A stretch of 64,000 bases of DNA, taken from positions 9,959 to 73,958 of the IMG/VR virus record IMGVR_UViG_3300045988_175441; one strand, written 5' to 3'. The notes beneath the pieces are model-generated. The model did not search any database and was not told the DNA's origin. It saw only the letters and a program-made list of their open reading frames with translations. Origin of the DNA: a virus. The position numbers and the translations under genes were made by a program. Below, one piece after another: positions 40,219-63,527 of this stretch; within the stretch, counting starts at the first letter, position 1, and each line of letters begins with the position of its first letter.

Positions 40219-40497
40219 ATGAAGTCTAAACGAGATATTTATAAATCAATGGCTAAAGCCCTTGACTACAGTAACGAGCGTTCAAAAGAAGCAGTAGAGT
40301 ATATCTTTGATAAAATCTCAGAATTTCTAGCAGAAGGCGAAAAAGTTCAGTTGATTGGCTTTGGTAATTTTGAAGTGCGAGGACGTGCAGAGCGTAAAGG
40401 TCGCAATCCACAGACAGGGAAATCTATTATGATTAAAGCAAAGAAAGTACCTGCTTTTAAATCAGGAACAGCCTTGAAAGAGCTAGTAAATAAATAA
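40219..40497 (+). CDS. hup: HU/IHF-family histone-like DNA-binding protein (copy 2)
   Basis: 92 aa. [41 protein letters not shown]. Collinear with 174..452. Confidence 0.9.
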
Positions 40498-40510
40498 GAG
40501 ACCAGAGGAA

Positions 40511-40537
40511 GTCTATGAGAAATCATAGGCTTTTTTA
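40511..40537 (+). terminator. Rho-independent terminator
   Basis: GTCTATGA-GAAA-TCATAGGC stem followed by T6. Confidence 0.7.
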
Positions 40538-40546
40538 TTTATTTTG

Positions 40547-40575
40547 TTGACAGAGGAAAAGAAAGAGTGTATAAT
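40547..40575 (+). promoter_or_regulatory. Reiterated promoter cassette P1
   Basis: TTGACA-N17-TATAAT within GAGTGTATAATATAAACATAAAA. Confidence 0.7.
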
Positions 40576-40609
40576 ATAAACATAAAATCTAAGAAAGGCT
40601 TTAAGGAGA

Positions 40610-41974
40610 ATGATTTTAAGAGGGGAAGAAGTGATAGAACTCCGTCCTTGGCAAAAGTCGGCTCTAGTTCGCAGTAGAAGGGAGATAGACGGTATTTTCC
40701 TTGAAGCACTAGGTGGACGTGGTAAGACAATCGCAACAATGGCGATCATTCAGGAGAAGAAAGCAGAGCGTGTTCTAATCTTGAATAACAAGACAGCCAT
40801 ACTCAATGGTTGGGAGAAGGACGCTCAGGAGCTAAATTTGGGCTATCCTGTCGCTTTTACGGTCAAAACCGACAAATGGTTAAGGTCGAAAGCGAACGCT
40901 CTTAGAGAAGCCGAGAAGGGGCTTAAAACGCTTCGTAAAAAAATAGGGGTACGAAAACTCTATAGACAGAATCCAAAGTATGTAGAACTTAGCGAGAACG
41001 TGAAGCAGTTGAAAGCAGAGTTGGACTATGATGTACTTGTCATAGATGAATGGCAGGATATGTGTAGTAATCAGACCTGTAAGGACTATCTACATATCCA
41101 GAGAAAGTACACTATCGGCTTATCTGCAACACCTATCAGGCGCAAAGGGGAGAACTTTTACCCCCTTGAAAAGACCTTCTTCAAGACGCAAGAACCGTCC
41201 AATAGACAGGAATGGCTCTTAAAGTGGGGAACACTAGTCTATGATTCTTATTCTGCAATGAAAGCAAAGTGGAAGGATTTTGCAGACTACGAGAGCTATA
41301 TTGCTCAACTAGATAACCGTGGCAATTTTATGTGTTGCGAGGAGATCGAGAACATAGAGCAAGCTGTATTAAACAATGGCTTTGCAAAGGAGCTTTACCT
41401 AAAGCGTGTTTCAATCCCTGAGAAGAACAAAGAAAAGCTGAAAAGTTTTAAAAAGTTCAACGTCTTAGGAGTAGATGGCGATTATGTCATGGGTAAAGGC
41501 TCTATGTCTAACAAGCATACCGAACGCTTGCTGAGACAAGCAGAGGTTGTTATTGAAGATGGCAAGCTGATCGTAGATGACACTAAGATTAGTCCTGTAA
41601 TGGAAATGGCAGGTGGAATGTTAGAGAGGTCATTTAACCGAAAAGAGGGGCTGAAAGGTGGCGTGGTTGTCGTTTGTGAAAGCAAGAGAGTAGCAAAGGC
41701 AATGTATGAACACTTTAAAGGCAATTCTCTTGGGCTATGGACTGGCGATAAGCAGATAGACCACTTGAACAGCGCTAACTTAATTGCTACAGCAAAGGTC
41801 ATGGGAACTGGTGTAGATGGATTGCAGTATCGCTTTGATACTATGATTGTACTTGATCCAAAACAAGAAGGAAGTGGAGAGTACAATGATTATAGACAGT
41901 TGCAATGGCGTATCTCAGGGGCAAGACAACAACACAAAGTGAACATTGTTGAAGTGGTTTTCGTAGAGGAATAA
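40610..41974 (+). CDS. Superfamily-2 helicase-like ATPase (DEAD/SNF2-like)
   Basis: Motif I LGGRGKT, motif II VLVIDEWQ, motif III LSATP, and a C-terminal QLQWRISGARQ (motif VI-like). Confidence 0.65.
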   Translation: MILRGEEVIELRPWQKSALVRSRREIDGIFLEALGGRGKTIATMAIIQEKKAERVLILNNKTAILNGWEKDAQELNLGYPVAFTVKTDKWLRSKANALREAEKGLKTLRKKIGVRKLYRQNPKYVELSENVKQLKAELDYDVLVIDEWQDMCSNQTCKDYLHIQRKYTIGLSATPIRRKGENFYPLEKTFFKTQEPSNRQEWLLKWGTLVYDSYSAMKAKWKDFADYESYIAQLDNRGNFMCCEEIENIEQAVLNNGFAKELYLKRVSIPEKNKEKLKSFKKFNVLGVDGDYVMGKGSMSNKHTERLLRQAEVVIEDGKLIVDDTKISPVMEMAGGMLERSFNRKEGLKGGVVVVCESKRVAKAMYEHFKGNSLGLWTGDKQIDHLNSANLIATAKVMGTGVDGLQYRFDTMIVLDPKQEGSGEYNDYRQLQWRISGARQQHKVNIVEVVFVEE

Positions 41975-41977
41975 ATT

Positions 41978-42544
41978 ATGGGGATAAAAGAGATAGTTCA
42001 AAGAATTTTTAAGAAGGAAGCAAAAGTGCATATTCTTCTTGATATTGACGGAGTGCTTAACACAAACAAAGAGCCTACTGGCTATTACAAAATTATTTCA
42101 CACCCTTGGGGAAGGTGGACTGTAAGGACAGATGTTTTGGATTGGGTAAAAGAACTTTCAAGCATGGATAATGTTCAAGTCCATTGGGTATCAACTTGGG
42201 AAGATGAAAGCAATATTATCAATAAGTACCTAAATATCAAGGAGTTTCATTGTTTTAAAGTTAATGGAACGGTAGTAGAAGGGAAATTAAAAGCAATTAA
42301 GGAACAACTAGCGACAGTCAAAGGGAAAACAATTATTGCAATAGATGATGATTTGAACAGAAATCAGTTGCTATCTTTAACAGAGGAACAGAATGTTAAT
42401 AAGTTGAGACAAGAGGTTACTAACCTTGCTTATCAAAATCACAACGCTTTTTATGGAGTAGTTCCTGATAGAAATATTGGAATAAGTGACGAGGAAATGA
42501 AATTTGTTGGGGAAATTATAGAGCAGGAGTTGGCAAGAAGATAG
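41978..42544 (+). CDS. HAD-superfamily hydrolase-like protein
   Basis: N-terminal ILLDIDGVLN (DxDxV), then VSTWE, then IAIDDD, in the order of HAD motifs I-IV. Confidence 0.5.
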   Translation: MGIKEIVQRIFKKEAKVHILLDIDGVLNTNKEPTGYYKIISHPWGRWTVRTDVLDWVKELSSMDNVQVHWVSTWEDESNIINKYLNIKEFHCFKVNGTVVEGKLKAIKEQLATVKGKTIIAIDDDLNRNQLLSLTEEQNVNKLRQEVTNLAYQNHNAFYGVVPDRNIGISDEEMKFVGEIIEQELARR

Positions 42545-42548
42545 CTAT

Positions 42549-42577
42549 TTGAATTATTCAGAGGAACGGTGTATAAT
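42549..42577 (+). promoter_or_regulatory. Reiterated promoter cassette P2 (variant -35; apparently leaderless)
   Basis: TTGAAT-N17-TATAAT within GGTGTATAATATAAATATG. The A of the ATG at 42584 is the 7th nt after the -10. Confidence 0.5.
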
Positions 42578-42583
42578 ATAAAT

Positions 42584-43207
42584 ATGGGGAAAAGACAAGA
42601 TGTGGTTGTCAATCGCTTGTATGAGCTTGTAAAATCAACCTCAAAACCCAGAATACCAATGGCAGAATCTTTGAGCCGATATAGTGGGCTAGATGTCGAA
42701 CAGGTAAAAGATATAGCCATAGAAATCAATAAAGCACGCAGGATAAACAGTTTACCCAACTACCGAATGGTAAGTATCTTACTACGAGTGCTTCCTGATG
42801 AAGATATAAGGTATCTTCTGAAATTGAATCGAGAAGCAAGGTATGGGAATGAACAGAGAACTCCTGATGAAATGCTTGCGATTAGTATTTTTAGGAAAAG
42901 AATTAGTGGGCAGTTTAACCAGACCAGAAACGAAGTCTTTTCAGAACTGGTAAAAAAACACGCTGATCTAAATATCGTTCCTTGCGAGACGATATTAGAC
43001 GAGCTAGAGGACTATTTTAACAATAGTGAAATGATAATTCTTAGAATGGTAGCAAGAGGTTACAACCCTAAAATAGAGGACGCAACAAACACTATAAGTC
43101 TGCTGAGTGCAGAGCATAGGCAACTTATGAGAGAAAACAGAAAGAAAGAAAGAGACAGGTTACTATATGAGTACGAAAGAAGAAGTAAAACAGAAAGTGA
43201 AAACTAG
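42584..43207 (+). CDS. Hypothetical protein, 207 aa
   Basis: ATG at 42584. The track start at 42569 lies inside the promoter -10. Confidence 0.55.
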   Translation: MGKRQDVVVNRLYELVKSTSKPRIPMAESLSRYSGLDVEQVKDIAIEINKARRINSLPNYRMVSILLRVLPDEDIRYLLKLNREARYGNEQRTPDEMLAISIFRKRISGQFNQTRNEVFSELVKKHADLNIVPCETILDELEDYFNNSEMIILRMVARGYNPKIEDATNTISLLSAEHRQLMRENRKKERDRLLYEYERRSKTESEN

Positions 43208-43646
43208 CTATAAATATCATCATATCACGAGACGATATTTGAAGCGCAACTATCAAAAGGTTCTTGAAATTCAACGCAGATACCGAGAAGCACACCCAGA
43301 AAAGTCGAGAGAGTGGCGTAGAGAAGCGCAACGTAGGTTCTATCTGAAAAATAAGGATAAACCAGAGTATCAGGCAAGTAAATATTACAGCAACCAAAAA
43401 GGGAGCTTTAAACGCTATGTGTTGAATCACGCAGAGCAGGAAGAACTGAACCTTTTTCTATCCGTCTTGGAAGCTAAGAAGAAGAATGAAGCAGTCAAAC
43501 GCCCTGTACTGATTGCCCTAGATGATAAAGAAGTTCAAAAAATGCGAACGATAGCTTACCGTTTTATCTTTAAGAACGTAGAAGCAAAAGACTATAAGCA
43601 GGTTGAAGGCTTTATCCATGAAGCGCTAGAAAAACTAGAACGGTAA
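43167..43646 (+). CDS. Hypothetical basic protein, 159 aa
   Basis: ORF overlapping the upstream gene by 41 nt. Arg/Lys-rich. Confidence 0.5.
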   Translation: MSTKEEVKQKVKTSYKYHHITRRYLKRNYQKVLEIQRRYREAHPEKSREWRREAQRRFYLKNKDKPEYQASKYYSNQKGSFKRYVLNHAEQEELNLFLSVLEAKKKNEAVKRPVLIALDDKEVQKMRTIAYRFIFKNVEAKDYKQVEGFIHEALEKLER

Positions 43647-43649
43647 GGT

Positions 43650-43823
43650 ATGAAGTTCAAGCTCTTATTGTTACTAGTCAATGCAGGGGCAATGTATCTT
43701 GTTTATCTACATGAAAGCCCAGATAGAACCTTGCTTGGGTTATCTATCTTATTTTCCACCTACATTTATCTGTTTGTCAGGTATTTGTTTTGCAGACCAC
43801 AGAAAAACGCAAAGAGGAAATAA
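43650..43823 (+). CDS. Small membrane protein, 57 aa
   Basis: ATG after TAAGGT. MKFKLLLLLVNAGAMYLVYL...LSILFSTYIYLFVRYLF suggests two TM helices. It ends before the terminator, unlike track ORF 43681..43863. Confidence 0.45.
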   Translation: MKFKLLLLLVNAGAMYLVYLHESPDRTLLGLSILFSTYIYLFVRYLFCRPQKNAKRK

Positions 43824-43932: not shown

Positions 43933-45459
43933 ATGGCTTTTGGGGAAAATATAGAAAAACTTAGCTCAATTACTTTAGAGTGTCATGATATGGATAGTGG
44001 TTCTAATTATGGAACAGGGATTGACGCTCCTGACGTGGAATTAAATGACGCAGACCTAGAAAAACTTGCTGATTGGTATGTGAAGCACTATGGCAATGGT
44101 TCAGTAACAGTCGAGGACGTGAAGGATCATGAATACGATAACGAAATCAAGGAAATCATTGAACAGGCTATCCTAGATAATGCAACGGTTTATGATGAAA
44201 AAGCAAGAAAATACTACAACCAGACTGTAAAATCCTATTATGTAACATATTCTGCAAAAGTGAACTGTTCTTTTGAACTAAATGGCTTGAGCTTTAATAT
44301 CAACTATGATGAAATTGAACGCAATTTTCCTTTTACTAAAGGTTTAGAGGACTATTCAGAAGTCCTAGAACTAGTTGAAAAAGACGAGCTAGACAACTTA
44401 TTATCAGATGACGATAAGAACGAGTTGGAACAATTAAAAGTCCAGATTAAAGACAATTACTACTCAGTTGCAAGCCTTCCTGTAGAAATTGATTGGGAAA
44501 TGTGTAAAGGCTATGCAAAAGAAGCAGGTGTAGCTGATGAATACCTGACAGAAGCAAACTTAAACCGTGCTTTGGAGCTTACTTTGCAAAATATTGCTCT
44601 TGAATACACTAAGATAGGGGATTGCTTTGTCCTTATCAAAGACGGTTTGATCCATGTAGGAACAAACATTGTAGAATATGAAGATACAGCAGAAGAAGAT
44701 ATTGAAACGATTAGTAAATTGACTATAGAGAAAGACGACTTAGGAATTTATCGTCTGTATGTATCAGGAGAAATGCAGGACGAGTTGAACAAGGCTACAG
44801 AATACAAAGAAGTTATTACACGAATTTGGAGTTATGTAACATGGTTTAAGCAGGAAAAAGCAAAAGCAGATACCTATATCCAAGAAATCAATGCAAAAAT
44901 CAAGAATATCTTATCAAGCATTATGGAACGTATCTTGACTGTTGCAGAAGTTGAAAAAAACCAAGAATGGGTGGTTAAGAAACTAGACCTTGCAAACGAG
45001 TTAGAACAAGCAGTAAAAACTTACCTAACTGCTAAAAGGGAAATGCGTCACGCGCTAGAAGATGATAGTTTGGAAAAATTAAAGGTAGATACAACAGCTA
45101 TTGGGCTACTTAACCTAGACGCTTTAACAGGTGGATCTTTAAGAGTTGGAGTGGAATTTTTAACAAGCGTTTTGGGAGACCTAAAAGAAGCGAAAACGTC
45201 ATTTTCTATGTTGCAGGTGGCAGAAATTTCCTTTGAAGAAGTGTTGAAGATGGAATCAGGAACTTGCTCATTGGTTCTAACAGAAATCAGTTCACAACTT
45301 AAAAAGCTACTAAGTGAACATAGCGAAAATGAAAAGATGGCGCAGGAAATCGAAGAAGCGCTTGCGCTTACTAAACAACCGAAAGTGATTACAGCAGAAG
45401 AAGAAATGGTGTCTGCATGGAATAAATATATTGGTTTGAAAATGGAAGGGAAGGAATAA
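43933..45459 (+). CDS. Hypothetical acidic protein, 508 aa
   Basis: Long ORF with an AAGGAG SD. No motif recognised. Confidence 0.7.
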   Translation: MAFGENIEKLSSITLECHDMDSGSNYGTGIDAPDVELNDADLEKLADWYVKHYGNGSVTVEDVKDHEYDNEIKEIIEQAILDNATVYDEKARKYYNQTVKSYYVTYSAKVNCSFELNGLSFNINYDEIERNFPFTKGLEDYSEVLELVEKDELDNLLSDDDKNELEQLKVQIKDNYYSVASLPVEIDWEMCKGYAKEAGVADEYLTEANLNRALELTLQNIALEYTKIGDCFVLIKDGLIHVGTNIVEYEDTAEEDIETISKLTIEKDDLGIYRLYVSGEMQDELNKATEYKEVITRIWSYVTWFKQEKAKADTYIQEINAKIKNILSSIMERILTVAEVEKNQEWVVKKLDLANELEQAVKTYLTAKREMRHALEDDSLEKLKVDTTAIGLLNLDALTGGSLRVGVEFLTSVLGDLKEAKTSFSMLQVAEISFEEVLKMESGTCSLVLTEISSQLKKLLSEHSENEKMAQEIEEALALTKQPKVITAEEEMVSAWNKYIGLKMEGKE

Positions 45460-45461
45460 TC

Positions 45462-45674
45462 ATGAGAGAAACGATTGAAGCTTTTTTGGAAGAAACCAAA
45501 AATCTTTCTGACGATACCTTGCTTGGAGAAAGAATCGGAACGGAATTTTATTGGAAGTACGGTAGAGCGACAAAATGCTTTTGGAGTTGGTATTTTGATA
45601 GCGATTGTGTAGTGACTATGAAACACCTACGCTATCTTGCTAACTTGGAATTGAAGCTTCTAGACAAAGAATAA
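45462..45674 (+). CDS. Hypothetical protein, 70 aa
   Basis: ORF 2 nt after the preceding stop. Confidence 0.5.
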   Translation: MRETIEAFLEETKNLSDDTLLGERIGTEFYWKYGRATKCFWSWYFDSDCVVTMKHLRYLANLELKLLDKE

Positions 45675-45777: not shown

Positions 45778-45805
45778 TTGACAAAAGATAAAAAGAGTGT
45801 ATAAT
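45778..45805 (+). promoter_or_regulatory. Reiterated promoter cassette P3
   Basis: TTGACA-N16-TATAAT within GAGTGTATAATATAAATATAAAA. Boxes at 45723-45738 and 45745-45759. Confidence 0.7.
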
Positions 45806-45842: not shown

Positions 45843-46175
45843 ATGATTAAATCAGTAAAACGATACATTAAGCGTAACCCCTACCAAGCAGGGCTTATCG
45901 CTTATAACTTAGGGGTGTTTGCATGGTTACAGACAAATGCACATATTTTGCTTATAAAAAACAATGTAACAATACCACCTTTTTTACAGGCTTATAGCGA
46001 AGAAACACTACGTTTTATCAGTACCTACACGCCTCTTTCATGGCTTGTTGGCTCAATGTTTTTAGCTTGGGCGTTTAAAGCTGTAGGAACGGTTGTAAAA
46101 TGGATCATCACTATTGCCCTTATCTTTGTAGCTTACTACTTGTTGAAAAACTACAGAATTGCTATCTTTGGCTAG
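45843..46175 (+). CDS. Small membrane protein, 110 aa
   Basis: AAGGAG SD. About 3 hydrophobic helices. Confidence 0.6.
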   Translation: MIKSVKRYIKRNPYQAGLIAYNLGVFAWLQTNAHILLIKNNVTIPPFLQAYSEETLRFISTYTPLSWLVGSMFLAWAFKAVGTVVKWIITIALIFVAYYLLKNYRIAIFG

Positions 46176-46483
46176 AAAGAGAAAAATGGCAATGTTTCAA
46201 CGCTTTGGAACATTACTTAAATCAACAAGGAATTGACCTTGATAGTGTAGCAGATGATGAAATTGAAATGGACGATTCAGCAAGAATCTATGTTTTCTTA
46301 GAAGCAAATATAGAAGGAGTTGAAATCGTTAAGGAGAACATGAGGTATTTTGTTCCACTACTAGAATATAATGGGGAAGTTGATTATTTTCTCCAATGGA
46401 TTGAATCAAGGTTCAGTTTTGATAAGTTCACTTGGAAAGATAAAGAGTATTATATCCTCATTGAGAAGGAAGATGACAAATGA
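46100..46483 (+). CDS. Hypothetical acidic protein (start uncertain)
   Basis: The only in-frame ATG overlaps the previous gene by 76 nt. Confidence 0.45.
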   Translation: MDHHYCPYLCSLLLVEKLQNCYLWLEREKWQCFNALEHYLNQQGIDLDSVADDEIEMDDSARIYVFLEANIEGVEIVKENMRYFVPLLEYNGEVDYFLQWIESRFSFDKFTWKDKEYYILIEKEDDK

Positions 46484-47010
46484 ATATTAGAAAGTTTAAT
46501 AAAAAGTTCAAGTTGAAAGTGATAGATGTTGCAGGAGACTTTTTTGGGAAAAAGCATTATTACCACTTTGACACTTGGGAAGAAGTCCAGTTCTTTCTTC
46601 CCTTTGGTTATACAGAAGGCAAAAGGCAGATTGAAGTCACAGAGACAACGGTTGCTCCTGACGGTATGCAGACCTTTAGCAAAACCAAGGTCAAAACCTA
46701 TGATATAGGCGAGCTGACCTTCATAGAGCAAGTAAATAATGTCCTTGGGCTGTTTGGGGAAGAACTAGTCATATCAGACAACACGGAGCAGTTTGGGGTT
46801 TTGCTGATTGACCTTCCTTCCAAGCTCATGAAGTACACTTATGTTGCTAAGAGGATTATTGTGGGGCATACCTACTACTCAGCCCTTAGTTGTGATGATA
46901 TTACCTTTATTGCAGAAGAAGGTAGTAGAGCTGTATTCACTCAGGAAGAAGTGGAGAATGATCCAATCCTTAGACGGTATTATTTCAAAGAGTTAAAGGG
47001 TATTGACTGA
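46480..47010 (+). CDS. Hypothetical protein, 176 aa
   Basis: ATGA overlap with the upstream gene. Confidence 0.6.
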   Translation: MNIRKFNKKFKLKVIDVAGDFFGKKHYYHFDTWEEVQFFLPFGYTEGKRQIEVTETTVAPDGMQTFSKTKVKTYDIGELTFIEQVNNVLGLFGEELVISDNTEQFGVLLIDLPSKLMKYTYVAKRIIVGHTYYSALSCDDITFIAEEGSRAVFTQEEVENDPILRRYYFKELKGID

Positions 47011-47465
47011 TGAAGGATTTTGATTGGGTTATTGGAAAACAAGTAGGGGAGCTGACTATACTTAGTTATACACCCCCTTTAAAAGAGCTACGACACCAAA
47101 GAAACTGTACTTGTCTATGCAGTTGTGGAAAGCAGGTCGAAAAAAGGTTAAGTCGTGTTTTAGGAGAAGAAGTGAAGTCTTGTGGGCATTTACGTTCACA
47201 GGCAGGTAAGGACTTTTCAATCAACCTAGATCAGAATAAGGCTTACGAAGCAAGAACAAGTAAAGACAAGGCTATGTCGAACTCACAGACAGGGATAAGG
47301 AATATATCAAAGTCAAAAAATGGAGACGGATATAGGGTATATCTCAGAAGGCATGGCAAACATTATCGTAAGAGAGCCAAAACCCTTTCAGAAGCTCTAC
47401 TAGTCAAGAAAGAATTGATTAAACAAGCTGAGAGGGATTTTGGCGAGGTCATCTATAAAGACTAG
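47010..47465 (+). CDS. AP2-like DNA-binding domain protein with N-terminal Cys cluster
   Basis: CTCLCSCGKQV...SCGH, followed by TGIRNISKSKNGDGYRVYLRRHGKHYRKRAKTLSEAL (AP2/integrase-type pattern). Confidence 0.5.
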   Translation: MKDFDWVIGKQVGELTILSYTPPLKELRHQRNCTCLCSCGKQVEKRLSRVLGEEVKSCGHLRSQAGKDFSINLDQNKAYEARTSKDKAMSNSQTGIRNISKSKNGDGYRVYLRRHGKHYRKRAKTLSEALLVKKELIKQAERDFGEVIYKD

Positions 47466-47529: not shown

Positions 47530-47558
47530 TTGACAAAGTATAGAAACAAGTGTATAAT
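47530..47558 (+). promoter_or_regulatory. Reiterated promoter cassette P4
   Basis: TTGACA-N17-TATAAT within AAGTGTATAATATAAGCATAAAT. Leader of about 100 nt before ssb. Confidence 0.7.
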
Positions 47559-47662: not shown

Positions 47663-48130
47663 ATGGCAATCAATAGTGTAGTCCTAGTAGGACGTATGAC
47701 AAAGGACGCAGAATTGCGTTATACACCTTCCAATGTGGCAGTCGCTACATTTACTCTTGCAGTAAATCGTCCATTTAAGAACCAAAATGGCGATCGTGAA
47801 GCTGACTTTATCAATGTGGTTATGTGGCGACAAAGTGCTGAAAACCTTGCAAATTGGGCTAAAAAAGGAGCGCTTATCGGTATTGAAGGGCGTATTCAAA
47901 CACGCAACTATGACAATCAACAAGGTCAACGTGTTTATATAACAGAAGTTCTAGCTGAGAGTTTTTCTCTTTTAGAAAGTCGCTCAGTTCGTGAAGGACA
48001 AGGACAAGGTGGATATTCTGCACCAAGCAACCAAGCGTCAACGCAACCTACACCTGACTTTTCAAGACAAGAAAATCCTTTCGGACAAACAAATCCAATG
48101 GATATTTCAGATGATGATTTACCATTTTAA
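47663..48130 (+). CDS. ssb: Single-stranded DNA-binding protein
   Basis: OB-fold N-terminus [21 protein letters not shown], a Gly/Gln-rich linker, and the acidic tip DISDDDLPF. Confidence 0.95.
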
Positions 48131-48203
48131 TTAAGCGAAAACCCTTGACTTCAAACAGTTCAAGGGCTTTCCTTTAGAGTATTTTAGGGGGCATTATGAA
48201 ACT

Positions 48204-49201: not shown

Positions 49202-49217
49202 AAAGGAAAAAATATTT

Positions 49218-54692: not shown

Positions 54693-54708
54693 AGAAAGGG
54701 GAAATAAG

Positions 54709-55125: not shown

Positions 55126-55136
55126 AAGGGGAAAAA

Positions 55137-55557: not shown

Positions 55558-55809
55558 ATGGAACTACTAGTAAAAGGAACTTATGATAAGAAAAGTGAGC
55601 GTTGGTATGTTGATACTGACGAAGCAACAGTAGAAGCAATGAACAGCTTTTTAGAGGAGCATGATCTTGACGTGTTTGAATCATGGTTAGGGTATTTGGA
55701 AGGTGGAATGAGTGATGAATCACTCGCCTTTATCAATATATTGCAGACTATCGAAAATGGAGAAATCAACCTATATGACGGTAGCAAGATTAAGCTAGTA
55801 GAAGGGTAG
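55558..55809 (+). CDS. Hypothetical acidic protein, 83 aa
   Basis: ACAGGAGAAGG SD. Confidence 0.6.
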   Translation: MELLVKGTYDKKSERWYVDTDEATVEAMNSFLEEHDLDVFESWLGYLEGGMSDESLAFINILQTIENGEINLYDGSKIKLVEG

Positions 55810-55814
55810 AAAAA

Positions 55815-56198
55815 ATGGAACAACGCTTTACAAAGAAAGACTTTTTTGTAGGTCAGGAAGTTTACGCAGAATATGTCGGTTTGACAGGTTTAAGAAATAA
55901 AAAAGGGGATATTAGTTTAGAAGTTGTAACAAGAGTAGGGAATAAGTACGTTACAACAAATAAACGTATGTATCAAATTGCAGATGGTGTCCTAGTGACA
56001 GAATATTCTCCTGATTATGTATTGTGGATCAATAAGGGAGACTTAGAAATGAAAATAGCTAAAGATAAGCTGTTTTCAAAATTATCAAGTGAGTTTTCAT
56101 CAGGAGTAGGATTGCAGAATAGAAAACTCTATGAGAGACTGAGCCTAGAGGACTTGCAAGAGATTGAGCGAATTATTGACAAAGGAGAAACAAAGTAA
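55815..56198 (+). CDS. Hypothetical protein, 127 aa
   Basis: ORF in the operon. Confidence 0.6.
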   Translation: MEQRFTKKDFFVGQEVYAEYVGLTGLRNKKGDISLEVVTRVGNKYVTTNKRMYQIADGVLVTEYSPDYVLWINKGDLEMKIAKDKLFSKLSSEFSSGVGLQNRKLYERLSLEDLQEIERIIDKGETK

Positions 56199-56384
56199 AT
56201 GAAGGTATATAACGCAATCGGAACAGTCTATAATGTCTTTGGCAGATTGAAGAAAAAAGAGCTTATCGGCTCTTTCTCAACACTAGAGCAGGCAAGAAAC
56301 GTAGTTAGTCAGGTAGCAAGCAACTATGACGAAGTGGGAATAGTTGTCACTGAGCTTGACAAAGTGGAAACAAAGGGACTATAA
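56199..56384 (+). CDS. Hypothetical protein, 61 aa
   Basis: Start abuts the preceding stop. Confidence 0.5.
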   Translation: MKVYNAIGTVYNVFGRLKKKELIGSFSTLEQARNVVSQVASNYDEVGIVVTELDKVETKGL

Positions 56385-56404
56385 AAGGGGTAGCGAGGTA
56401 AAGC

Positions 56405-56767
56405 ATGGGATATACAGGGTGGCTTATGCCAGATGGGGAATTTTATCCTTGTAAACATAAAGAACATACTGAAACTTTACAAAATTTATTTGAAATGCCT
56501 CAGTACCATAAATTGATGGTAGACAATATCAGCAGAGGTAAGCCTTTTAGGAGCGAACCTGAAGGTTGTATGTGTTTCTGGGATACTGATTTCAAATTTG
56601 CTAGTTTTATTGGCGAAATGACCGAACCTGTAAAGGAATTTTTGATAAAGCATTTTCCAGAGTTCAATAAAGAACAGAAAAAATGTATTTATGATAAGTT
56701 CTACCTTTTGAGTTTAAAAACCGAAGGTCAAGAAATGATTTTGAAGGAATTTGAGCAGTTTATGTAA
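56405..56767 (+). CDS. Hypothetical protein, 120 aa
   Basis: ORF in the operon. Confidence 0.6.
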   Translation: MGYTGWLMPDGEFYPCKHKEHTETLQNLFEMPQYHKLMVDNISRGKPFRSEPEGCMCFWDTDFKFASFIGEMTEPVKEFLIKHFPEFNKEQKKCIYDKFYLLSLKTEGQEMILKEFEQFM

Positions 56768-56778
56768 AAGGAGTAGCT

Positions 56779-57060
56779 ATGAAACAACCTATAACACAAG
56801 ATAACATTGTATGGCAGTTGCCTATAGCAAGTGCAGATAACAATAATACAGGCTATATTCATGGCAATGCAAAAACTCATGCTTTTGTAGTTTGTAGTGA
56901 CAACCTTATGCACGATTCTTTATGTAAAAGATACGGTCAATACACTAAATATTTTGAGACTATCAACATTGAAGGAGTTGAGGAAAAACACCTATGTAAA
57001 AAGTGCCTGAACGCCTACAAGAAACTAAAAAAGAAAGAAGAAAACAATAATGGAGCTTAA
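56779..57060 (+). CDS. Hypothetical Cys-rich (zinc-ribbon-like) protein, 93 aa
   Basis: AAGGAG SD. Contains C..C(K)RYG ... CKKC. Confidence 0.55.
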   Translation: MKQPITQDNIVWQLPIASADNNNTGYIHGNAKTHAFVVCSDNLMHDSLCKRYGQYTKYFETINIEGVEEKHLCKKCLNAYKKLKKKEENNNGA

Positions 57061-57364
57061 AGGGAAAACCAGAGAGGGAGAACTTGTTACTTTGCTATCA
57101 GGAAAGGATAGCTACACTATCGAAGTAGTAGCAAGTGAAGATAAAAAAGGCAAGAAGAAGTCTGACAAGGCAAAAGAGCCAGTACGGATTGGAAATTACA
57201 AGAATGAATTTCCTAAGAAATCGCTTGAAATGTACGAAATTAAGAAGCATGATGGCGAAACAGGAGTGAAGATCAAATTTGCAGGGGAACGGTTTACCTT
57301 CTCTTTTGTGACTGAGACACCATACGAAAAAGTGGTAGAAATGCTAGAGGTGGGGAATAATTGA
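57050..57364 (+). CDS. Hypothetical protein, 104 aa
   Basis: Overlaps its neighbours by a few nt. Confidence 0.55.
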   Translation: MELKGKTREGELVTLLSGKDSYTIEVVASEDKKGKKKSDKAKEPVRIGNYKNEFPKKSLEMYEIKKHDGETGVKIKFAGERFTFSFVTETPYEKVVEMLEVGNN

Positions 57365-57675
57365 TGTTTGGAAAGAAAATGTTAGTAGTGAGCTATGTCT
57401 ATAGTTTTGATTACTCAAACGAACCATTAGAGCTTAATGAACTAATGTTTGAGAAAGTTCCAGTAAAGAAGAAATGGGGGAAGTATGTTTTGCTTAACCC
57501 TAAAGATCAAGAACGCTTTGGTTTATCAGTAACAAAAAAAGACTTTGAGAAAGTCTTAAAAAAAGGGTGTTACTATATTGTGTTTTTTGAATGTCATTCT
57601 GCGAAAAATGTATTTAAAGCCAGTAGGCTGTTTAATAAAGAATTTGATGTTCATGGTGGTAGATGTTTTGAATAA
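57364..57675 (+). CDS. Hypothetical protein, 103 aa
   Basis: ATG overlapping the preceding TGA (TGATG). Confidence 0.55.
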   Translation: MFGKKMLVVSYVYSFDYSNEPLELNELMFEKVPVKKKWGKYVLLNPKDQERFGLSVTKKDFEKVLKKGCYYIVFFECHSAKNVFKASRLFNKEFDVHGGRCFE

Positions 57676-57784
57676 GTAACAGAAAAAGGGATAGAATAAT
57701 GAGCAAACATAGACGAGTTGAAGATATGTCTGAAATCTGGGCAAAAGGGTATGTGGATTCAGGAGTAGTTGAGGTAAAAGAAGC

Positions 57785-58219
57785 ATGACAGAAGAAGTTA
57801 AAATCTACGCTTATAGGCTAAGTATTGCAGATGGCAATGTCAAAGTTGAAGAAATAGTGTTTACTGCAATAGAAAAGCAGAAAACATTTATTTTAAAACA
57901 AGATGGAGATAATACTACTAAGAGAGTAGTTTATAATCTCAATGAACCTATCGAAGATAGTATTGTTTCTGAAAAACGAGACAATTTCATGCGTGGCAGA
58001 AGAACTTTAAGAAAAGATGAATTGGAAGATCTGACTGCTTCTCCATTTGAAGATATACGCTATATCTATTACAGAGAACCGTCTCTAGCAAAAGCTATGT
58101 CTATGTTCAAAAGGAACTTAGAAGTTCGTATTATAGGGTTTAAGTATAAAATCGAGAGCCTGAAAACCAAGACGAAGGCTTGTGAGGGCTTTGTAGCTGA
58201 TGTAAAAAATAATTTTTAG
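57785..58219 (+). CDS. Hypothetical protein, 144 aa
   Basis: ORF in the operon. Confidence 0.6.
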   Translation: MTEEVKIYAYRLSIADGNVKVEEIVFTAIEKQKTFILKQDGDNTTKRVVYNLNEPIEDSIVSEKRDNFMRGRRTLRKDELEDLTASPFEDIRYIYYREPSLAKAMSMFKRNLEVRIIGFKYKIESLKTKTKACEGFVADVKNNF

Positions 58220-58232
58220 TAAGGGGAAATAA

Positions 58233-58883
<651 letters not shown>

Positions 58884-58896
<13 letters not shown>

Positions 58897-59369
58897 AGGA
58901 GAAAGCATTGTTAGAAAAATTGACGTTGCATTATAATGAAAATACTACTTGGCTTATTATAGCTATAGTTGTCTGTTTTGCAGTTGTTTCACTTGTCGCT
59001 ACTATAGTTTCGCTAGTGGCAATTTGGAAAGACAGAGGTAAGCCTTTTAGAGTTTCAAAAAACGTGCTATTGCTTTGTATGACCTTTTTGGTATCAATTC
59101 TTTGTATAATGGCAGAGATCGCCTGTTGTTTGGCAATAATGGGAGAAATTAGAGGATATAACGCTAACAAGGATATACAGACAGGCATTTCGGATATTAA
59201 AGACTATTATGAGATAAAACCAAAAGGCAACCTTTTATATTTTAATTTGAAGGGAAAGTATAGAGGGTTAGGAATACTAGAATATCATGCAACAGCAGAG
59301 GTTGTAGAAGAAAATCCGACTGTATATAAAATAGAATACGAGGGAGATTATTTTGAAATTAAGAAGTAA
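58884..59369 (+). CDS. Membrane protein, 161 aa
   Basis: Two TM helices (WLIIAIVVCFAVVSLVATIVSLVAIW and LLLCMTFLVSILCIMAEIACCLAIM). Overlaps the methylase stop. Confidence 0.6.
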
Positions 59370-59598: not shown

Positions 59599-59627
59599 TT
59601 GACAATAGATAGAAAAGAATGTATAAT
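59599..59627 (+). promoter_or_regulatory. Reiterated promoter cassette P8
   Basis: TTGACA-N17-TATAAT within GAATGTATAATATAAACATAAAA. Box at 59566-59580. Confidence 0.7.
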
Positions 59628-60306: not shown

Positions 60307-60335
60307 TTGACAAGGGGAAAGAAAAGGTGTATAAT
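60307..60335 (+). promoter_or_regulatory. Reiterated promoter cassette P9
   Basis: TTGACA-N17-TATAAT within AGGTGTATAATATAACCATAAAT. Boxes at 60263-60278 and 60285-60299. Confidence 0.7.
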
Positions 60336-61027: not shown

Positions 61028-61056
61028 TTGACAAAGGACAAAAAAGAGTGTATAAT
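61028..61056 (+). promoter_or_regulatory. Reiterated promoter cassette P10
   Basis: TTGACA-N17-TATAAT within GAGTGTATAATATAAACATAAAGAAGTTAAGGAG. Box at 60983-60998. Confidence 0.7.
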
Positions 61057-62060: not shown

Positions 62061-62154
62061 CAAATGCTACTTCTTCTTTTTATTTGCATCACAAAAAGGC
62101 GAAAAAGAAACACAAAAAAATAATAAAAAAGTACAAAAAAATAATACAAAATGG

Positions 62155-62183
62155 TTGACAGGTAGAAAATAAAGGTGTATAAT
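62155..62183 (+). promoter_or_regulatory. Reiterated promoter cassette P11
   Basis: TTGACA-N17-TATAAT within AGGTGTATAATATAAATATAAAA. Boxes at 62111-62126 and 62132-62146. Confidence 0.7.
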
Positions 62184-62218
62184 ATAAATATAAAAGGTTG
62201 AGAAAAAAGGAGAACAAA

Positions 62219-62539
62219 ATGAACAACACAGTAACAACAACAAAACACGCAGTCATTGAACTTGTCAAAAGCGCTCAAGTCTTTACAAAGGATAGGAACG
62301 ATAACGCTACTAGCGTTAAAGCTCTTGACAACATTAGAGATTTTATTTTTAATGTGAACCAAGTCTTTACTCCTGATGGTGCAACTAAAGTGGCTTTAGA
62401 CGACATTTGCCAACGTTGCTTGATCTATAGTGATTCTTTTAAGCCTAACGTGGATTTGGTTGACATGGCTAAGAAAATCAACAGCGTCAGATTTGACGTG
62501 ATGTTGGAATTGAAAACAGCCAAAATTGATATTTTTTAG
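62219..62539 (+). CDS. Hypothetical protein, 106 aa
   Basis: ATG after AAAGGAG. Confidence 0.6.
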   Translation: MNNTVTTTKHAVIELVKSAQVFTKDRNDNATSVKALDNIRDFIFNVNQVFTPDGATKVALDDICQRCLIYSDSFKPNVDLVDMAKKINSVRFDVMLELKTAKIDIF

Positions 62540-62586
62540 ACTAACAAATACCAACCGTATTAGTATTTGAGAAGTAAAATAGAGAA

Positions 62587-62609
62587 AGAGGGGTTATCCC
62601 CTCTTTTTA
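62587..62609 (+). terminator. Rho-independent terminator
   Basis: AGAGGGG-TTAT-CCCCTCT stem followed by T5. Confidence 0.85.
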
Positions 62610-62666
62610 GTTGCAAACACAACACAAAAAAATAATCAAAAAACATAAAAAAGTTGCAAAAAGTAG

Positions 62667-62695
62667 TTGACAAAGAGTTAAAAAGAGTGTATAAT
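62667..62695 (+). promoter_or_regulatory. Reiterated promoter cassette P12
   Basis: TTGACA-N17-TATAAT within GAGTGTATAATATAAACATAAAGAAGTTAAG. Box at 62621-62636. Nearly identical to P10 over about 100 nt. Confidence 0.7.
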
Positions 62696-62734
62696 ATAAA
62701 CATAAAGAAGTTAAGAAAACAGGAGAAAAAACCT

Positions 62735-63148
62735 ATGTCAATTACAGCCTTGAAAGACAACGCAGATATTCTTTCAGAACACAACTATATGTGGCATGGA
62801 GAAACCCTATGCGACAACTATGGGGCTACACAAGAAATGATGAATGAGTTTTGGGAGTTGGTAACAAAGAGAATTGACGAAGCCTACATGGAAGAATATA
62901 AGGCTTACCATATCACTCATGAAGAATCATGCAATCCAAACGCAACTTATATTGGTTTGTGTGGTATGTCTATTGAAAGCGAGGCTATTGATTATGCTAT
63001 TGAGGAGTTGGGAATCAAGGAAGATTTGGAAGAATGGCTAGATACAACTATTGAAAAACTAGAAGAAGTCATTAACCGAGTTAAAGTAGATATGGATAAA
63101 ATCCTATATGAAATCGTTGAAAAATACAACCTAACCTACGTTGACTAA
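62735..63148 (+). CDS. Hypothetical strongly acidic protein, 137 aa
   Basis: ATG after ACAGGAG. Asp/Glu-rich throughout. Confidence 0.6.
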   Translation: MSITALKDNADILSEHNYMWHGETLCDNYGATQEMMNEFWELVTKRIDEAYMEEYKAYHITHEESCNPNATYIGLCGMSIESEAIDYAIEELGIKEDLEEWLDTTIEKLEEVINRVKVDMDKILYEIVEKYNLTYVD

Positions 63149-63191
63149 TAAGAGGGGCTATAAGCCCCTTAGAATTAAAGGAGAACGCAAC

Positions 63192-63527
63192 ATGAACCTA
63201 ACTAAAGGATACACAAACCCTATCTTTGAAATGATTGGCTATGAGCCTAAAACAACCTTCTGGTCTGACTTTAGCATTGCTGATATGTTCGGAGTTGAGG
63301 GAGTTAAGGACACCTACAACCGAGCAAAAGATGAATGGAAAGATAACATTGAGTACATGACAGAGTTTGCTATGGTACTCAATCATAAGAGTTGGCAACA
63401 CAACGAAAAAAACCAAACCCTATGTAGTTTATATTCTGACCTATGGTGTAACATTGAGGACTTTATCTATGAGCATTTCAAGGATAATGAGGAAGCAATC
63501 AGCTACTACCAAAGAGTAACAGATTAG
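63192..63527 (+). CDS. Hypothetical protein, 111 aa
   Basis: ATG after AAAGGAG. The track start at 63141 overlaps the previous gene. Confidence 0.6.
   Translation: MNLTKGYTNPIFEMIGYEPKTTFWSDFSIADMFGVEGVKDTYNRAKDEWKDNIEYMTEFAMVLNHKSWQHNEKNQTLCSLYSDLWCNIEDFIYEHFKDNEEAISYYQRVTD

What the first reader, a model, noticed from the sequence alone, without database searches (positions are those of the whole stretch)
40219..63527. 24-kb array of small genes on one strand with leading-region/anti-defence-island character
From the second HU gene to 63527, every credible gene (about 45, mostly under 180 aa) is on the plus strand. The recognisable ones are those typically found in plasmid leading regions or phage early regions:
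- SSB
- an orphan DNA methyltransferase
- an SF2 helicase plus a HAD-like protein
- an AP2-like DNA binder
- a GIY-YIG nuclease
- YopX-like and DUF551-like proteins
- a membrane HExxH (SprT-like) protein
- a secreted nuclease
- several very acidic small proteins (43933, 52860, 55558, 62735) of the kind that sometimes act as DNA mimics

Established work places anti-restriction, anti-CRISPR and SOS-inhibition genes together with ssb in the first-transferred DNA. By inference, the many unknowns here are candidate anti-defence or establishment factors. I cannot assign any specific anti-defence function from the sequence alone.
Basis: inference. Interest (0 to 1): 0.65.

Follow-up and report, generated by a model that had tools for sequence, protein, structure and literature searches.

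The report
Terminal early-gene regulon of linear plasmid
The 24-kb one-strand gene array is real: it is one end of a roughly 85-kb linear plasmid found in human oral metagenomes, split into at least 11 operons that share one near-identical strong promoter, which fits genes switched on just after entry into a new cell, though no known anti-defence gene was found.

Summary
From 40219 to 63527 I count 42 ORFs, all on the plus strand, and relatives show coding-type substitution patterns.

Eleven near-identical promoter cassettes lie only in 40.5-62.7 kb, all on the plus strand. Each has phased A-tracts, TTGACA, a purine spacer, TG-TATAAT and ATAAnCATAAA. Ten perfect consensus matches occur against 0.02 expected.

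The window is the right 64 kb of a roughly 85-kb linear replicon that is widespread in human oral metagenomes:
- It has an internal iteron/Rep3 origin.
- Its transfer genes are distantly related to pELF-type linear plasmids.
- It has no detectable relaxase.
- It has 1.5-2.8 kb terminal inverted repeats and fold-back ends.

Both terminal domains carry outward-facing promoter-cassette modules. Gene content turns over at cassettes and gene junctions.

No known anti-defence family was found by the Pfam, PHROGs, NCBIfam or PDB searches run. Pfam covered every window gene and 92 related families; the other three covered parts of the window only. The promoters are not ssDNA (Frpo-like) promoters. Acidic proteins are not enriched. 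The one-strand layout starts at the replication origin, not at 40219.

Best reading: an establishment or early regulon like those of the pLS20/p576 plasmid family, placed at the ends of a plasmid that may enter recipients end-first. The anti-defence function remains an inference.

The parts
40219..40497 (+). HU-family gene (HU2) with its own promoter and terminator. It marks the inner boundary of the module. A 67%-identical paralogue (HU1, 174-452, minus strand) sits at the mirror position on the other arm.
   Evidence: Pfam Bac_DNA_binding E 2.9e-26; identity to HU1; terminator 40505-40536
40547..40575 (+). Promoter cassette P1: perfect TTGACA-N17-TATAAT core, with conserved A-tract upstream region and ATAAnCATAAA downstream.
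40610..43823 (+). Operon 1: SF2 (ResIII/SNF2) helicase, HAD_SAK_2-like protein, two basic proteins, a 57-aa membrane peptide. Terminator at 43830-43849.
43933..45674 (+). 508-aa acidic coiled-coil-rich protein plus a 70-aa protein. No family promoter directly upstream. Terminator at 45684-45708.
   Evidence: 468 unnamed homologues, the 120 listed all at 79% identity or more
45778..45805 (+). Promoter cassette P2 (16-nt spacer variant).
45843..47465 (+). Operon 2: membrane protein, acidic protein, 176-aa protein, 151-aa Cys-rich protein related to the DNA-binding part of HNH endonucleases.
47530..47558 (+). Promoter cassette P3.
47663..50723 (+). Operon 3: SSB, 275-aa Xre-type HTH protein (candidate regulator), 57-aa membrane peptide, second FtsK/SpoIIIE ATPase (509 aa as called from a TTG codon).
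50891..50919 (+). Promoter cassette P4.
50955..52154 (+). Operon 4: 55-aa protein, lipoprotein DNA/RNA non-specific endonuclease, 81-aa protein. Terminator at 52178-52206.
52414..52442 (+). Promoter cassette P5.
52596..55388 (+). Operon 5: two acidic small proteins, membrane HExxH (weakly SprT-like) protein, GIY-YIG nuclease, YopX, 88-aa protein.
55500..55528 (+). Promoter cassette P6.
55558..59369 (+). Operon 6: ten small genes, including a Phage_ProQ_C-like protein (55815), the 153-aa N6-adenine-type methyltransferase (58435) and a membrane protein. This is the start of the part that varies among relatives.
59599..59627 (+). Promoter cassette P7, followed by the single gene 59666-60037.
60307..60335 (+). 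Promoter cassette P8, followed by genes 60385-60696 and 60681-60938 (phrog_33937). Terminator at 60949-60966.
61028..61056 (+). Promoter cassette P9, followed by gene 61088-61759 (223 aa).
62155..62183 (+). Promoter cassette P10, followed by gene 62219-62539. That gene is 88% identical at DNA level to part of Streptococcus phage Javan349.
62667..62695 (+). Promoter cassette P11. In relatives it lies at or near the inner edge of the terminal inverted repeat.
62732..63527 (+). Telomere-proximal operon: a 138-aa acidic protein and a 111-aa all-helical protein. It is present at both ends (inside the TIR) of all four complete relatives. Terminator at 63545-63564.
   Evidence: models with pLDDT 94.9 and 93.6 have no structural match
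63565..64000 (.). Conserved non-coding subterminal region with degenerate direct repeats and an inverted repeat (about 63851-63888). The window stops 0-160 bp short of the contig ends of relatives. The two relatives that run furthest (L129, L221) end in a fold-back palindrome of about 190 nt.

Best explanation
SHOWN
- Window 40.2-64.0 kb is one terminal domain of a roughly 85-kb linear plasmid-like replicon from human oral metagenomes. The DNA resembles streptococcal DNA.
- The replicon has an internal iteron/Rep3 origin, transfer genes distantly related to pELF-type plasmids, no detectable relaxase, 1.5-2.8 kb terminal inverted repeats, and fold-back ends.
- The domain is a regulon of at least 11 short operons. 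Each is driven by a copy of one conserved cassette of about 90 bp: four helically phased A-tracts, a perfect -35, a C-poor purine spacer, TG plus a perfect -10, and an invariant ATAAnCATAAA start region. A leader of 30-50 nt in most units and a strong Shine-Dalgarno sequence follow.
- The other chromosome end carries a mirror-image module.
- The inner half (helicase to GIY-YIG, 40.2-54.7 kb) is conserved among relatives. The outer half is a mosaic that exchanges genes at the cassettes and at gene junctions.

INFERRED
- These promoters need only the host sigma-A RNA polymerase on double-stranded DNA.
- If the plasmid enters recipients end-first as dsDNA, as proposed for pELF-type and Streptomyces linear plasmids, the terminal modules would be the first DNA in. 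They would be transcribed at once and strongly.
- Their products would be SSB, HU, helicase, nucleases, a methyltransferase and dozens of small unknown proteins. These would serve establishment and host take-over, possibly including anti-defence.
- A plasmid-encoded repressor may then shut the promoters off. The Xre-type HTH gene at 48204, in the SSB operon, is the candidate. The conserved promoter flanks are the candidate operators. This would be the scheme known for plasmid p576.
For: - Promoter family: 10 perfect matches against 0.02 expected, all on the plus strand, only in 40.5-62.7 kb. It is conserved in near-identical contigs. In 199 distinct copies from relatives, the A-tract phasing and flanks are conserved beyond the searched pattern.
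- Predicted terminators separate the units.
- Linear topology: window 62573-63996 matches both ends of four independent 76-86 kb contigs in inverted orientation. Their TIRs are 1513-2758+ bp at 99-100% identity and start at contig base 1. Contig ends fold back, with z-scores of -6.9 and -5.9.
- In five large contigs (the four with confirmed TIRs and one more of 85 kb), cassettes occur only in the two terminal domains and point outward.
- Internal origin: seven perfect 22-bp iterons at 19404-19556 upstream of a Rep3-type gene, with the GC-skew switch.
- pELF relationship: the 642-aa protein matches pELF_GK941 and S. salivarius linear pIKMIN-B502, which share an AAA ATPase, a giant membrane protein and an LPXTG protein in synteny.
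- No nickase is present in pELF-type plasmids, where an end-first dsDNA model has been proposed (PMC13492992). No relaxase family was detected here.
- Mosaicism: 207 gene families lie behind the promoter in relatives, 41 of them in the window. About 99% of the transfer region aligns with a relative, against 62-76% of the module. Homology breakpoints are enriched at cassettes: 21 of 78, against 8% expected, P = 7e-7.
- Precedent: pLS20/p576 establishment regulons are clustered, variable, multi-operon and share regulatory sequences. In p576 these are strong promoters held off by a plasmid repressor (PMC8708921).
Against: - No expression data of any kind are available.
- No known anti-defence family was detected in the window or in 92 related families.
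- Recognisable functions are DNA metabolism and recombination: SSB, HU, helicases, nucleases, ERF, a PDDEXK-like domain. These could equally serve replication, recombination or maintenance of a linear replicon.
- The second FtsK-like ATPase may be a transfer or segregation component rather than an establishment gene.
- End-first transfer is only a proposal, even for pELF.
- The repressor and its operators are guesses.
- The hairpin or linear ends rest on short-read metagenome contigs, not on physical mapping.
- Strong promoters may simply be constitutive.
Confidence: 0.5

Rival explanations
1. The module is the replication, recombination and maintenance toolkit of a linear replicon, expressed constitutively. 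SSB, HU, helicase, nucleases, the FtsK-like translocase and, in relatives, the ERF and PDDEXK recombination proteins would service telomere replication or resolution, recombinational repair of the ends, and segregation. They would have no special role on entry or in anti-defence.
For: - Every recognisable function is DNA metabolism.
- The inner half of the module is conserved across relatives.
- The last operon is always inside the TIR next to the telomere.
- No anti-defence homologue was found.
Against: - It does not explain about 200 mostly orphan small-gene families with rapid turnover in the outer half.
- It does not explain why housekeeping functions would need 11 maximal-strength promoters.
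- No telomere resolvase, terminal protein or protein-primed polymerase was detected by the profile searches run on the module or on related gene families.
Confidence: 0.25
2. The module is an accretion zone for phage-derived 'moron'-like cargo. The chromosome ends tolerate insertions, and genes arrive with, or recombine behind, a portable strong promoter. The array has no common function.
For: - About a third of the window genes have PHROG relatives.
- There are DNA matches to Streptococcus phages Javan349 and 33888.
- DUF1642, YopX and ERF in the window or relatives are typical phage early genes.
- Breakpoints lie at cassettes.
- IMG/VR files these contigs as viral.
Against: - The cassette is conserved at specific positions in 199 diverged copies, including phased A-tracts and the start region, while the spacer varies. 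That indicates selection for a common regulatory function.
- The strict outward orientation on both arms and the conserved inner core argue for an organised module.
Confidence: 0.15
3. The element is a phage or an N15-like linear phage-plasmid, and the array is its early region.
For: - Linear genome with fold-back ends.
- Strong host-type early-looking promoters at the termini, as in T7, T5 and SPO1 (my own knowledge).
- Classified as viral in IMG/VR.
Against: - No capsid, portal, terminase or tail family was found. Pfam covered all window proteins. PHROGs covered the module and ten proteins from the left arm and centre.
- The centre encodes ParA, a Rep3 initiator with iterons, a multi-domain peptidoglycan hydrolase, FtsK-type ATPases, an LPXTG protein and pELF-like transfer genes.
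- No telomere-resolvase (protelomerase) family was among the Pfam hits.
Confidence: 0.07
4. The array is a classical plasmid leading region: ssDNA transfer from a nearby oriT nicked by a relaxase, with early expression from the transferred strand.
For: ssb and a methyltransferase sit on a single strand, as in leading regions (PMC11541004).
Against: - No relaxase family occurs in 64 kb or among the related gene families.
- The replicon is linear.
- The promoter cores are unpaired in ssDNA folds, so they are not Frpo-like.
Confidence: 0.03

Closest known systems
Establishment regulons ('establishment/anti-defence islands') of pLS20-family Bacillus plasmids, especially the EGeRS2/Reg system of p576 (Val-Calvo et al. 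2021, PMC8708921)
   Same: - Several clustered operons lie next to the conjugation genes.
- Each is preceded by a copy of one conserved regulatory sequence that contains a strong sigma-A promoter.
- Gene content varies among related plasmids, while the transfer genes are conserved.
   Different: - This element has 11 or more cassettes per arm, on both ends of a linear replicon, against four on p576.
- It has no ardC or other recognised anti-restriction gene.
- Its conserved flanks are A-tracts and ATAAnCATAAA, not the TTATCCC dual motifs.
- No ribbon-helix-helix (RHH) repressor was identified; an Xre-type HTH protein is the only candidate.
- Nothing has been tested experimentally.
Leading-region anti-defence islands of conjugative plasmids (Samuel et al. 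2024, PMC11541004)
   Same: ssb, an orphan methyltransferase, one-strand orientation, and many small uncharacterised genes next to the transfer machinery.
   Different: - No oriT or relaxase.
- No Frpo-type ssDNA promoters.
- No ArdA, KlcA, Acr or PsiB.
- The promoters are ordinary dsDNA promoters.
- The location is a chromosome end.
pELF-type linear plasmids of Enterococcus faecium (pELF1/pELF2) and S. salivarius linear plasmid pIKMIN-B502
   Same: - Hosts are Lactobacillales.
- Linear topology with a fold-back end.
- Weak but syntenic homologues of the AAA ATPase, the giant membrane protein, the LPXTG protein and the roughly 640-aa protein.
- FtsK-family ATPases and no relaxase.
- pIKMIN-B502 also has six perfect consensus promoters of its own type in its arms.
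   Different: - Protein identity is only 23-25%.
- This element has symmetric TIRs at both ends, whereas pELF1 has one hairpin end and one protein-capped end.
- It is not present in the plasmid or genome collections searched.
- The promoter-cassette regulon has not been described for pELF.
Terminal early / host-takeover regions of linear phages (SPO1 host-takeover module in the terminal redundancy, T5 first-step-transfer DNA, T7 class I genes). This comparison rests on my own knowledge.
   Same: Arrays of small genes at the genome ends, partly inside terminal repeats, driven by multiple near-consensus host promoters with A-rich upstream regions, and entering the cell first.
   Different: There are no virion genes. 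The element carries plasmid replication, partition and conjugation-like genes.

Membership tests
Plasmid leading region / anti-defence island (Samuel et al. 2024) | Lies within the first ORFs on the leading side of an oriT that is nicked by a relaxase | tested here: not met
   No relaxase family (Relaxase, TrwC, Mob_Pre, Rep_trans, Replic_Relax and others) among all window proteins at E<0.01. The replicon is linear.
Plasmid leading region / anti-defence island (Samuel et al. 2024) | Contains known anti-defence genes (ArdA/B/C, KlcA, Acr, PsiB, DarB) together with SSB and methyltransferases | tested here: not met
   SSB and a methyltransferase are present. No anti-defence family appears in Pfam, PHROGs, NCBIfam or PDB sequence searches of the window, or in Pfam searches of 92 related families.
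Plasmid leading region / anti-defence island (Samuel et al. 2024) | ssDNA (Frpo/ssi-type) promoters that fold into hairpins pairing the -35 and -10 regions | tested here: not met
   In ssDNA folds of all 11 cassettes the promoter core is unpaired in all but one (P50891, where the -35 and -10 pair only in short, interrupted stems). The strong stems are the upstream terminators. z-scores range from -3.6 to +1.4.
pLS20/p576-type establishment regulon | Several clustered operons, each preceded by a copy of one conserved regulatory sequence with a strong sigma-A promoter | tested here: met
   11 cassettes; alignment A1; 10 perfect consensus cores against 0.02 expected.
pLS20/p576-type establishment regulon | Variable, mosaic gene content among related plasmids, against conserved transfer genes | tested here: met
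   About 99% of the transfer region aligns, against 62-76% of the module. There are 207 families in the pan-repertoire. Breakpoints lie at cassettes and gene junctions.
pLS20/p576-type establishment regulon | Plasmid-encoded repressor that binds operators flanking the promoters and autoregulates (transient expression after transfer) | not testable with these tools
   The candidate is the Xre-type HTH gene at 48204 in the P47530 operon. Conserved flanks exist. Binding and regulation need experiments.
pLS20/p576-type establishment regulon | Includes a recognised anti-restriction gene (ardC in pLS20 and p576) | tested here: not met
   No ArdC or other Ard family was detected.
pELF-type linear plasmids | Linear topology with a hairpin or protein-capped end | tested here: inconclusive
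   The window end is homologous to both ends of four complete-looking contigs with TIRs. The two relatives that run furthest (L129, L221) end in fold-back palindromes. There is no physical evidence, and the window itself stops before the apex.
pELF-type linear plasmids | Homologous transfer-gene cluster (FtsK-family ATPases, large membrane protein) and absence of a nickase | tested here: met
   tblastn of the 642-aa protein hits 99 Enterococcus plasmids. The one opened, pELF_GK941, is a linear pELF-type plasmid (23% identity, E 1e-11) with a syntenic AAA ATPase, giant membrane protein and LPXTG gene. Two FtsK/SpoIIIE proteins are present and no relaxase. The homology is distant.
Inocle giant elements (Kiguchi et al. 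2025) | Circular element of about 350 kb carrying InoC (about 454 aa, PF13814 Replic_Relax) | tested here: not met
   No PF13814 hit in the window. Relatives are 72-108 kb contigs with TIRs.
Tailed phage / phage-plasmid early region | Virion and packaging genes on the same replicon | tested here: not met
   No structural family in Pfam or PHROGs for the window proteins tested. About 21 kb of the element lies outside the window, but it carries a second promoter-cassette module.

The most novel reading that the evidence does not exclude
Oral streptococci may carry a widespread, uncultured family of 72-108 kb linear conjugative plasmids with hairpin ends and terminal inverted repeats. These would enter recipients end-first as dsDNA. 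Both termini would be 'first-step-transfer' regulons, the plasmid counterpart of the T5/T7/SPO1 early regions. Maximal-strength host promoters would fire on arrival and then be silenced by a plasmid repressor. The 200 or so gene families behind them, almost all without relatives of known function or fold, would be a large reservoir of new establishment, host-takeover and anti-defence proteins.
Probability: 0.3. Interest if true: 0.85.

Novelty: new variant of a known kind. Interest (0 to 1): 0.68.

Why it matters
How linear plasmids of Gram-positive cocci transfer and establish is an open question with clinical weight, because pELF plasmids spread vancomycin resistance. This element gives a testable prediction. 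If transfer is end-first, the ends should carry the early genes. Here both ends are regulons with one shared, easily assayed promoter.

The family is common in human oral metagenomes. It is absent from the plasmid collection and the species-representative genomes searched, and IMG/VR lists its contigs as viral.

Its roughly 200 promoter-linked gene families include two high-confidence folds with no match among solved structures. They form a defined candidate set for new establishment or anti-defence functions. The cassette itself is a compact, very strong Gram-positive promoter with a UP-like element.

Tried and rejected
- Inocle identity. Read PMC12340149. Rejected: no InoC/PF13814, and relatives are about 85 kb and linear.
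- Near-identical DNA in plasmid and phage collections. None in plasmids; two matches under 300 bp in Streptococcus phages.
- The search for related loci with the FtsK-like protein in species-representative genomes: nothing. The exact-protein lookup for it failed because of its TTG start.
- Scan of species-representative genomes with the promoter motif: only scattered single hits in unrelated Bacillota MAGs. The element is therefore not in that collection.
- Frpo-like ssDNA promoter idea: rejected by folding.
- Search for anti-defence homologues:
  - Pfam, PHROGs, NCBIfam and PDB sequence searches of window proteins.
  - PADLOC on ten of the larger window proteins gave only domain-level helicase, FtsK and HTH hits.
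  - Pfam on representatives of 92 gene families from relatives found DpnD_N, ERF, DUF1642, Sortase, DUF3799, a helicase and DUF7678 only.
- Linker artefacts. Serglycin (GS linker) and PRIMA1 and similar (polyP linker) hits in the concatenated queries were ignored.
- DNA-mimic idea for acidic proteins. Acidity is not enriched. The acidic 138-aa protein model (pLDDT 94.9) matches no solved structure, so ArdA/Ocr-type DNA mimics with solved structures are excluded for this protein.
- Rfam scan of the whole window: no family.
- A relaxase or phage structural genes among the left-arm proteins: none.

Full report
1. OBSERVATION

Between 40219 and 63527 there are 42 plus-strand ORFs of at least 55 aa. 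No minus-strand ORF escapes overlap with them. 74% are shorter than 180 aa, against 41% in the first 40 kb.

They are real genes. In alignments to relatives, substitutions fall 3029/1495/1047 on codon positions 3/1/2 of the called frames. The only clear exception is 52596-52847.

Two labels were not confirmed by profiles. 'DUF551-like' (55122) hits only a PHROG of unknown function. 'AP2-like' (47010) hits only PHROG HNH-endonuclease families.

Three start codons need correcting, to 62219, 62732 and 63192.

2. WHAT THE ONE-STRAND LAYOUT MEANS

The plus-strand run does not begin at 40219. It begins at the rep gene (19751), while genes at 174-8567 are on the minus strand. GC skew is negative up to about 8 kb and positive from about 20 kb.

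Seven perfect 22-bp iterons (19404-19556) sit just upstream of a Rep3_C/DnaB_2 initiator. Co-orientation with forks leaving an internal origin therefore explains the strand bias. The bias is not evidence for a leading region.

3. THE FEATURE THAT DEFINES THE REGION

A consensus scan found 11 perfect or near-perfect sigma-70-type promoters, all on the plus strand and all intergenic. TTGACA-N17-TATAAT occurs 10 times against 0.02 expected, and only between 40547 and 62695. An eleventh copy has a 16-nt spacer (45778).

Aligned, they form one cassette of about 90 bp. It consists of an A-rich upstream part, TTGACA, a purine-rich spacer, (G)TG, TATAAT and an invariant ATAA-N-Y-ATAAA. In most units a leader of 30-50 nt and a strong Shine-Dalgarno sequence follow.

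I collected 199 copies from related contigs that differ by more than 10%. In them the positions beyond the search pattern are also conserved: four A-tracts spaced about 10.5 bp apart, a C-poor (5%) spacer and the start region.

Predicted terminators separate the units. The region is thus a regulon of at least 11 short operons.

As ssDNA the promoter cores stay unpaired in all but one cassette, so these are ordinary dsDNA promoters and not Frpo-like elements.

4. WHAT THE REPLICON IS

Exact-protein lookups place the window in human oral metagenome contigs with identical synteny. The plasmid collection holds no similar DNA, and the phage collection only two matches under 300 bp. The species-representative genomes do not hold the element.

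Motif scans of IMG/VR and metagenome contigs returned more than 130 related stretches at 72-90% identity. Among them are several 72-86 kb contigs.

In four of these contigs the two ends are inverted repeats starting at base 1: 2612 bp at 100%, at least 2758 bp at 100%, 1596 bp at 99.1% and 1513 bp at 99.5%. Window 62573-63996 matches both ends, and the window stops 0-160 bp before the contig ends.

The contigs that extend furthest turn back on themselves. Their last 190 nt or so fold into a long imperfect hairpin, with z-scores of -6.9 and -5.9.

I conclude that the window is the right-hand 64 kb of a roughly 85-kb linear replicon with TIRs and hairpin-type, or at least palindromic, telomeres. 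This is an inference from assemblies, not a physical result.

The centre encodes the following:
- ParA
- an 876-aa FtsK-type ATPase
- the Rep3 initiator
- a four-domain peptidoglycan hydrolase
- a 642-aa protein
- an AAA+ ATPase
- a 1389-aa membrane protein
- an LPXTG protein

The 642-aa protein has distant homologues in S. salivarius linear plasmid pIKMIN-B502 and in 99 Enterococcus plasmids. The one I opened, pELF_GK941, is a linear pELF-type plasmid with the same neighbours.

No relaxase family and no phage structural family was detected. The element is not an Inocle: it has no InoC/PF13814 and is the wrong size and topology.

5. ARCHITECTURE OF THE WHOLE ELEMENT

In five large contigs (the four with confirmed TIRs and one more of 85 kb), promoter cassettes occur only in the two terminal domains. 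They are on the minus strand at the left end and on the plus strand at the right end. The central 35-45 kb has none.

Each module starts just outside an HU gene. In the window these are HU1 (174-452, minus strand) and HU2 (40219, plus strand), which are 67% identical.

In all four contigs with confirmed TIRs, the last operon (62732-63527) lies inside the TIR.

6. GENE TURNOVER

Behind the cassettes in relatives I called 1121 ORFs. They fall into 207 families, and only 41 of these have a member in the window.

Against one contiguous relative, the transfer region is about 99% alignable and the module 62%. Other relatives give 64-76%. The inner part (40.2-54.7 kb) is conserved and the outer part is replaced.

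Homology breakpoints are enriched at the cassettes: 21 of 78 distinct endpoints against 8% expected, P = 7e-7. Most of the others sit at gene junctions. The cassettes therefore also act as recombination joints.

7. TEST OF THE ANTI-DEFENCE READING

No known anti-defence family was found. The searches were:
- Pfam, PHROGs and NCBIfam on window proteins.
- A PDB sequence search of all unknown proteins, which found only HTH and YopX structures.
- PADLOC on ten of the larger window proteins, which gave domain-level hits only.
- Pfam on representatives of 92 multi-member families from relatives, which found DpnD_N, ERF, DUF1642 twice, Sortase, DUF3799 (PDDEXK-like), a helicase and DUF7678.

Acidic proteins are not enriched.

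I modelled the two telomere-proximal proteins with good alignments. The 111-aa protein (414 homologues down to 49% identity) gave pLDDT 93.6. The acidic 138-aa protein gave pLDDT 94.9. The 111-aa model has no significant match in PDB or BFVD, and the 138-aa model has none in PDB. The best E-values are 1.0 or higher and TM-scores are mostly below 0.5.

This neither supports nor excludes an anti-defence role. It does exclude ArdA/Ocr-type DNA mimics with solved structures for the acidic 138-aa protein.

8. MECHANISM PROPOSED

The closest described system is the establishment regulon of pLS20-family plasmids. It consists of clustered, variable operons that share a regulatory sequence. In p576, strong promoters are kept off in donors by a plasmid repressor and fire transiently in recipients (PMC8708921).

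For pELF-type linear plasmids no nickase exists, two FtsK-family ATPases are essential, and an end-first dsDNA transfer model has been proposed (PMC13492992).

Putting these together, the terminal modules would be the first DNA to enter, whichever end leads. They would be transcribed immediately by host RNA polymerase from dsDNA promoters of maximal strength. This parallels the terminal early regions of T7, T5 and SPO1 (my own knowledge).

The Xre-type HTH gene at 48204 and the conserved promoter flanks are candidates for the shut-off circuit.

The anatomy is shown. The promoter function, the timing, the end-first entry, the repressor and any anti-defence activity are inferred.

9. VERDICT

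'Island of establishment-type genes next to the transfer machinery' fits. 'Leading region' in the oriT sense and 'anti-defence' do not have direct support.

The main rivals are:
- a constitutive DNA-maintenance toolkit for a linear replicon
- a cargo accretion zone
- a phage-plasmid early region
- a classical leading region

The finding is a new variant of a known kind: an establishment-type regulon duplicated at both ends of a pELF-like linear plasmid. It comes from a common but undescribed family of oral elements.

Noticed in passing
window 19404-19556: Seven perfect tandem copies of a 22-bp unit (TTGCACAACCGAAAACTGGGGT) about 200 bp upstream of the Rep3-type initiator gene (19751-21100). 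These are probably the iterons of the internal origin. They coincide with the switch in gene orientation and GC skew.
   Followed up: partly
window 15801-19159 (minus strand): Three tandem paralogous genes (362, 366 and 371 aa) between the DUF7679 gene region and the origin. The two scanned with Pfam and the one scanned with PHROGs gave no hit. Function unknown.
   Followed up: no
window 174-452 (-) and 40219-40497 (+): Two HU paralogues (67% identical) sit in mirror positions, each just inside a terminal promoter-cassette module. HU binds bent DNA, and the cassettes carry phased A-tracts, so a link is conceivable.
   Followed up: partly
window 63565-64000: A conserved non-coding subterminal region. 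It has four degenerate copies of a 36-nt repeat rich in ACACAAAAA/ATAAT, and an inverted repeat at about 63851-63888 (GCTCTAGCGCAGAAATTC...GAATTTTTCTGCTAGAGC-like). It is nearly invariant among relatives that differ by 10-20% elsewhere. It is a candidate telomere-protein binding or resolution site.
   Followed up: partly
window 52443-52850: Promoter P52414 is followed by only a 12-codon ORF. The 83-aa ORF at 52596-52847 shows no codon-position bias in substitutions (48/22/34). This stretch may be a long leader or a non-coding RNA rather than a gene. One relative (L012) has a different 115-aa ORF there.
   Followed up: partly
window 49194-50723: The second FtsK/SpoIIIE ATPase evolves fast: 1015 substitutions, only 45% at codon position 3. 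It lies inside the promoter-cassette module, in the SSB/HTH operon. It could be the partner ATPase of the 876-aa FtsK-like protein at 11242, by analogy with pELF2 TraC/TraD.
   Followed up: partly
window 43933-45459: The 508-aa acidic protein has 468 unnamed homologues. Most are 640-660 aa, so the window copy may be a shorter variant.
   Followed up: no
L016 (S. salivarius linear plasmid pIKMIN-B502) 26507, 27552, 29509, 30257 (+); 16260, 13296 (-): This cultured relative has six perfect consensus promoters of its own conserved type (TTGACAACGTAATAAA...TATAAT). They sit in the small-gene arms and point away from the centre. The same design principle therefore exists in an isolate that could be used for experiments.
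   Followed up: partly
proteins P0161 and P0332 (homologues of window 63192-63527 and 62732-63148): An NCBI record labelled Listeria monocytogenes (ABZ143_002831 and ABZ143_002832) carries both proteins of the telomere-proximal operon. The longest contigs on record for the two protein clusters are 69 and 82 kb. This is either contamination or a wider host range for the element family.
   Followed up: no
IMG/VR contigs, e.g. IMGVR_UViG_3300008089_000004 (85,654 bp) and 3300006262_000179 (83,856 bp): Complete-looking copies of this plasmid family are catalogued as viral genomes, although I found no virion genes. Other homologue-bearing contigs reach 95-108 kb, so the family spans about 72-108 kb.
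   Followed up: partly
window 40117-40155: A GC-rich hairpin followed by a T-run (CACGGTAGG...CCTACCGTGTTTTGTTTT) lies between two candidate promoters upstream of HU2. It is a possible attenuator or a second terminator for the transfer operon.
   Followed up: no
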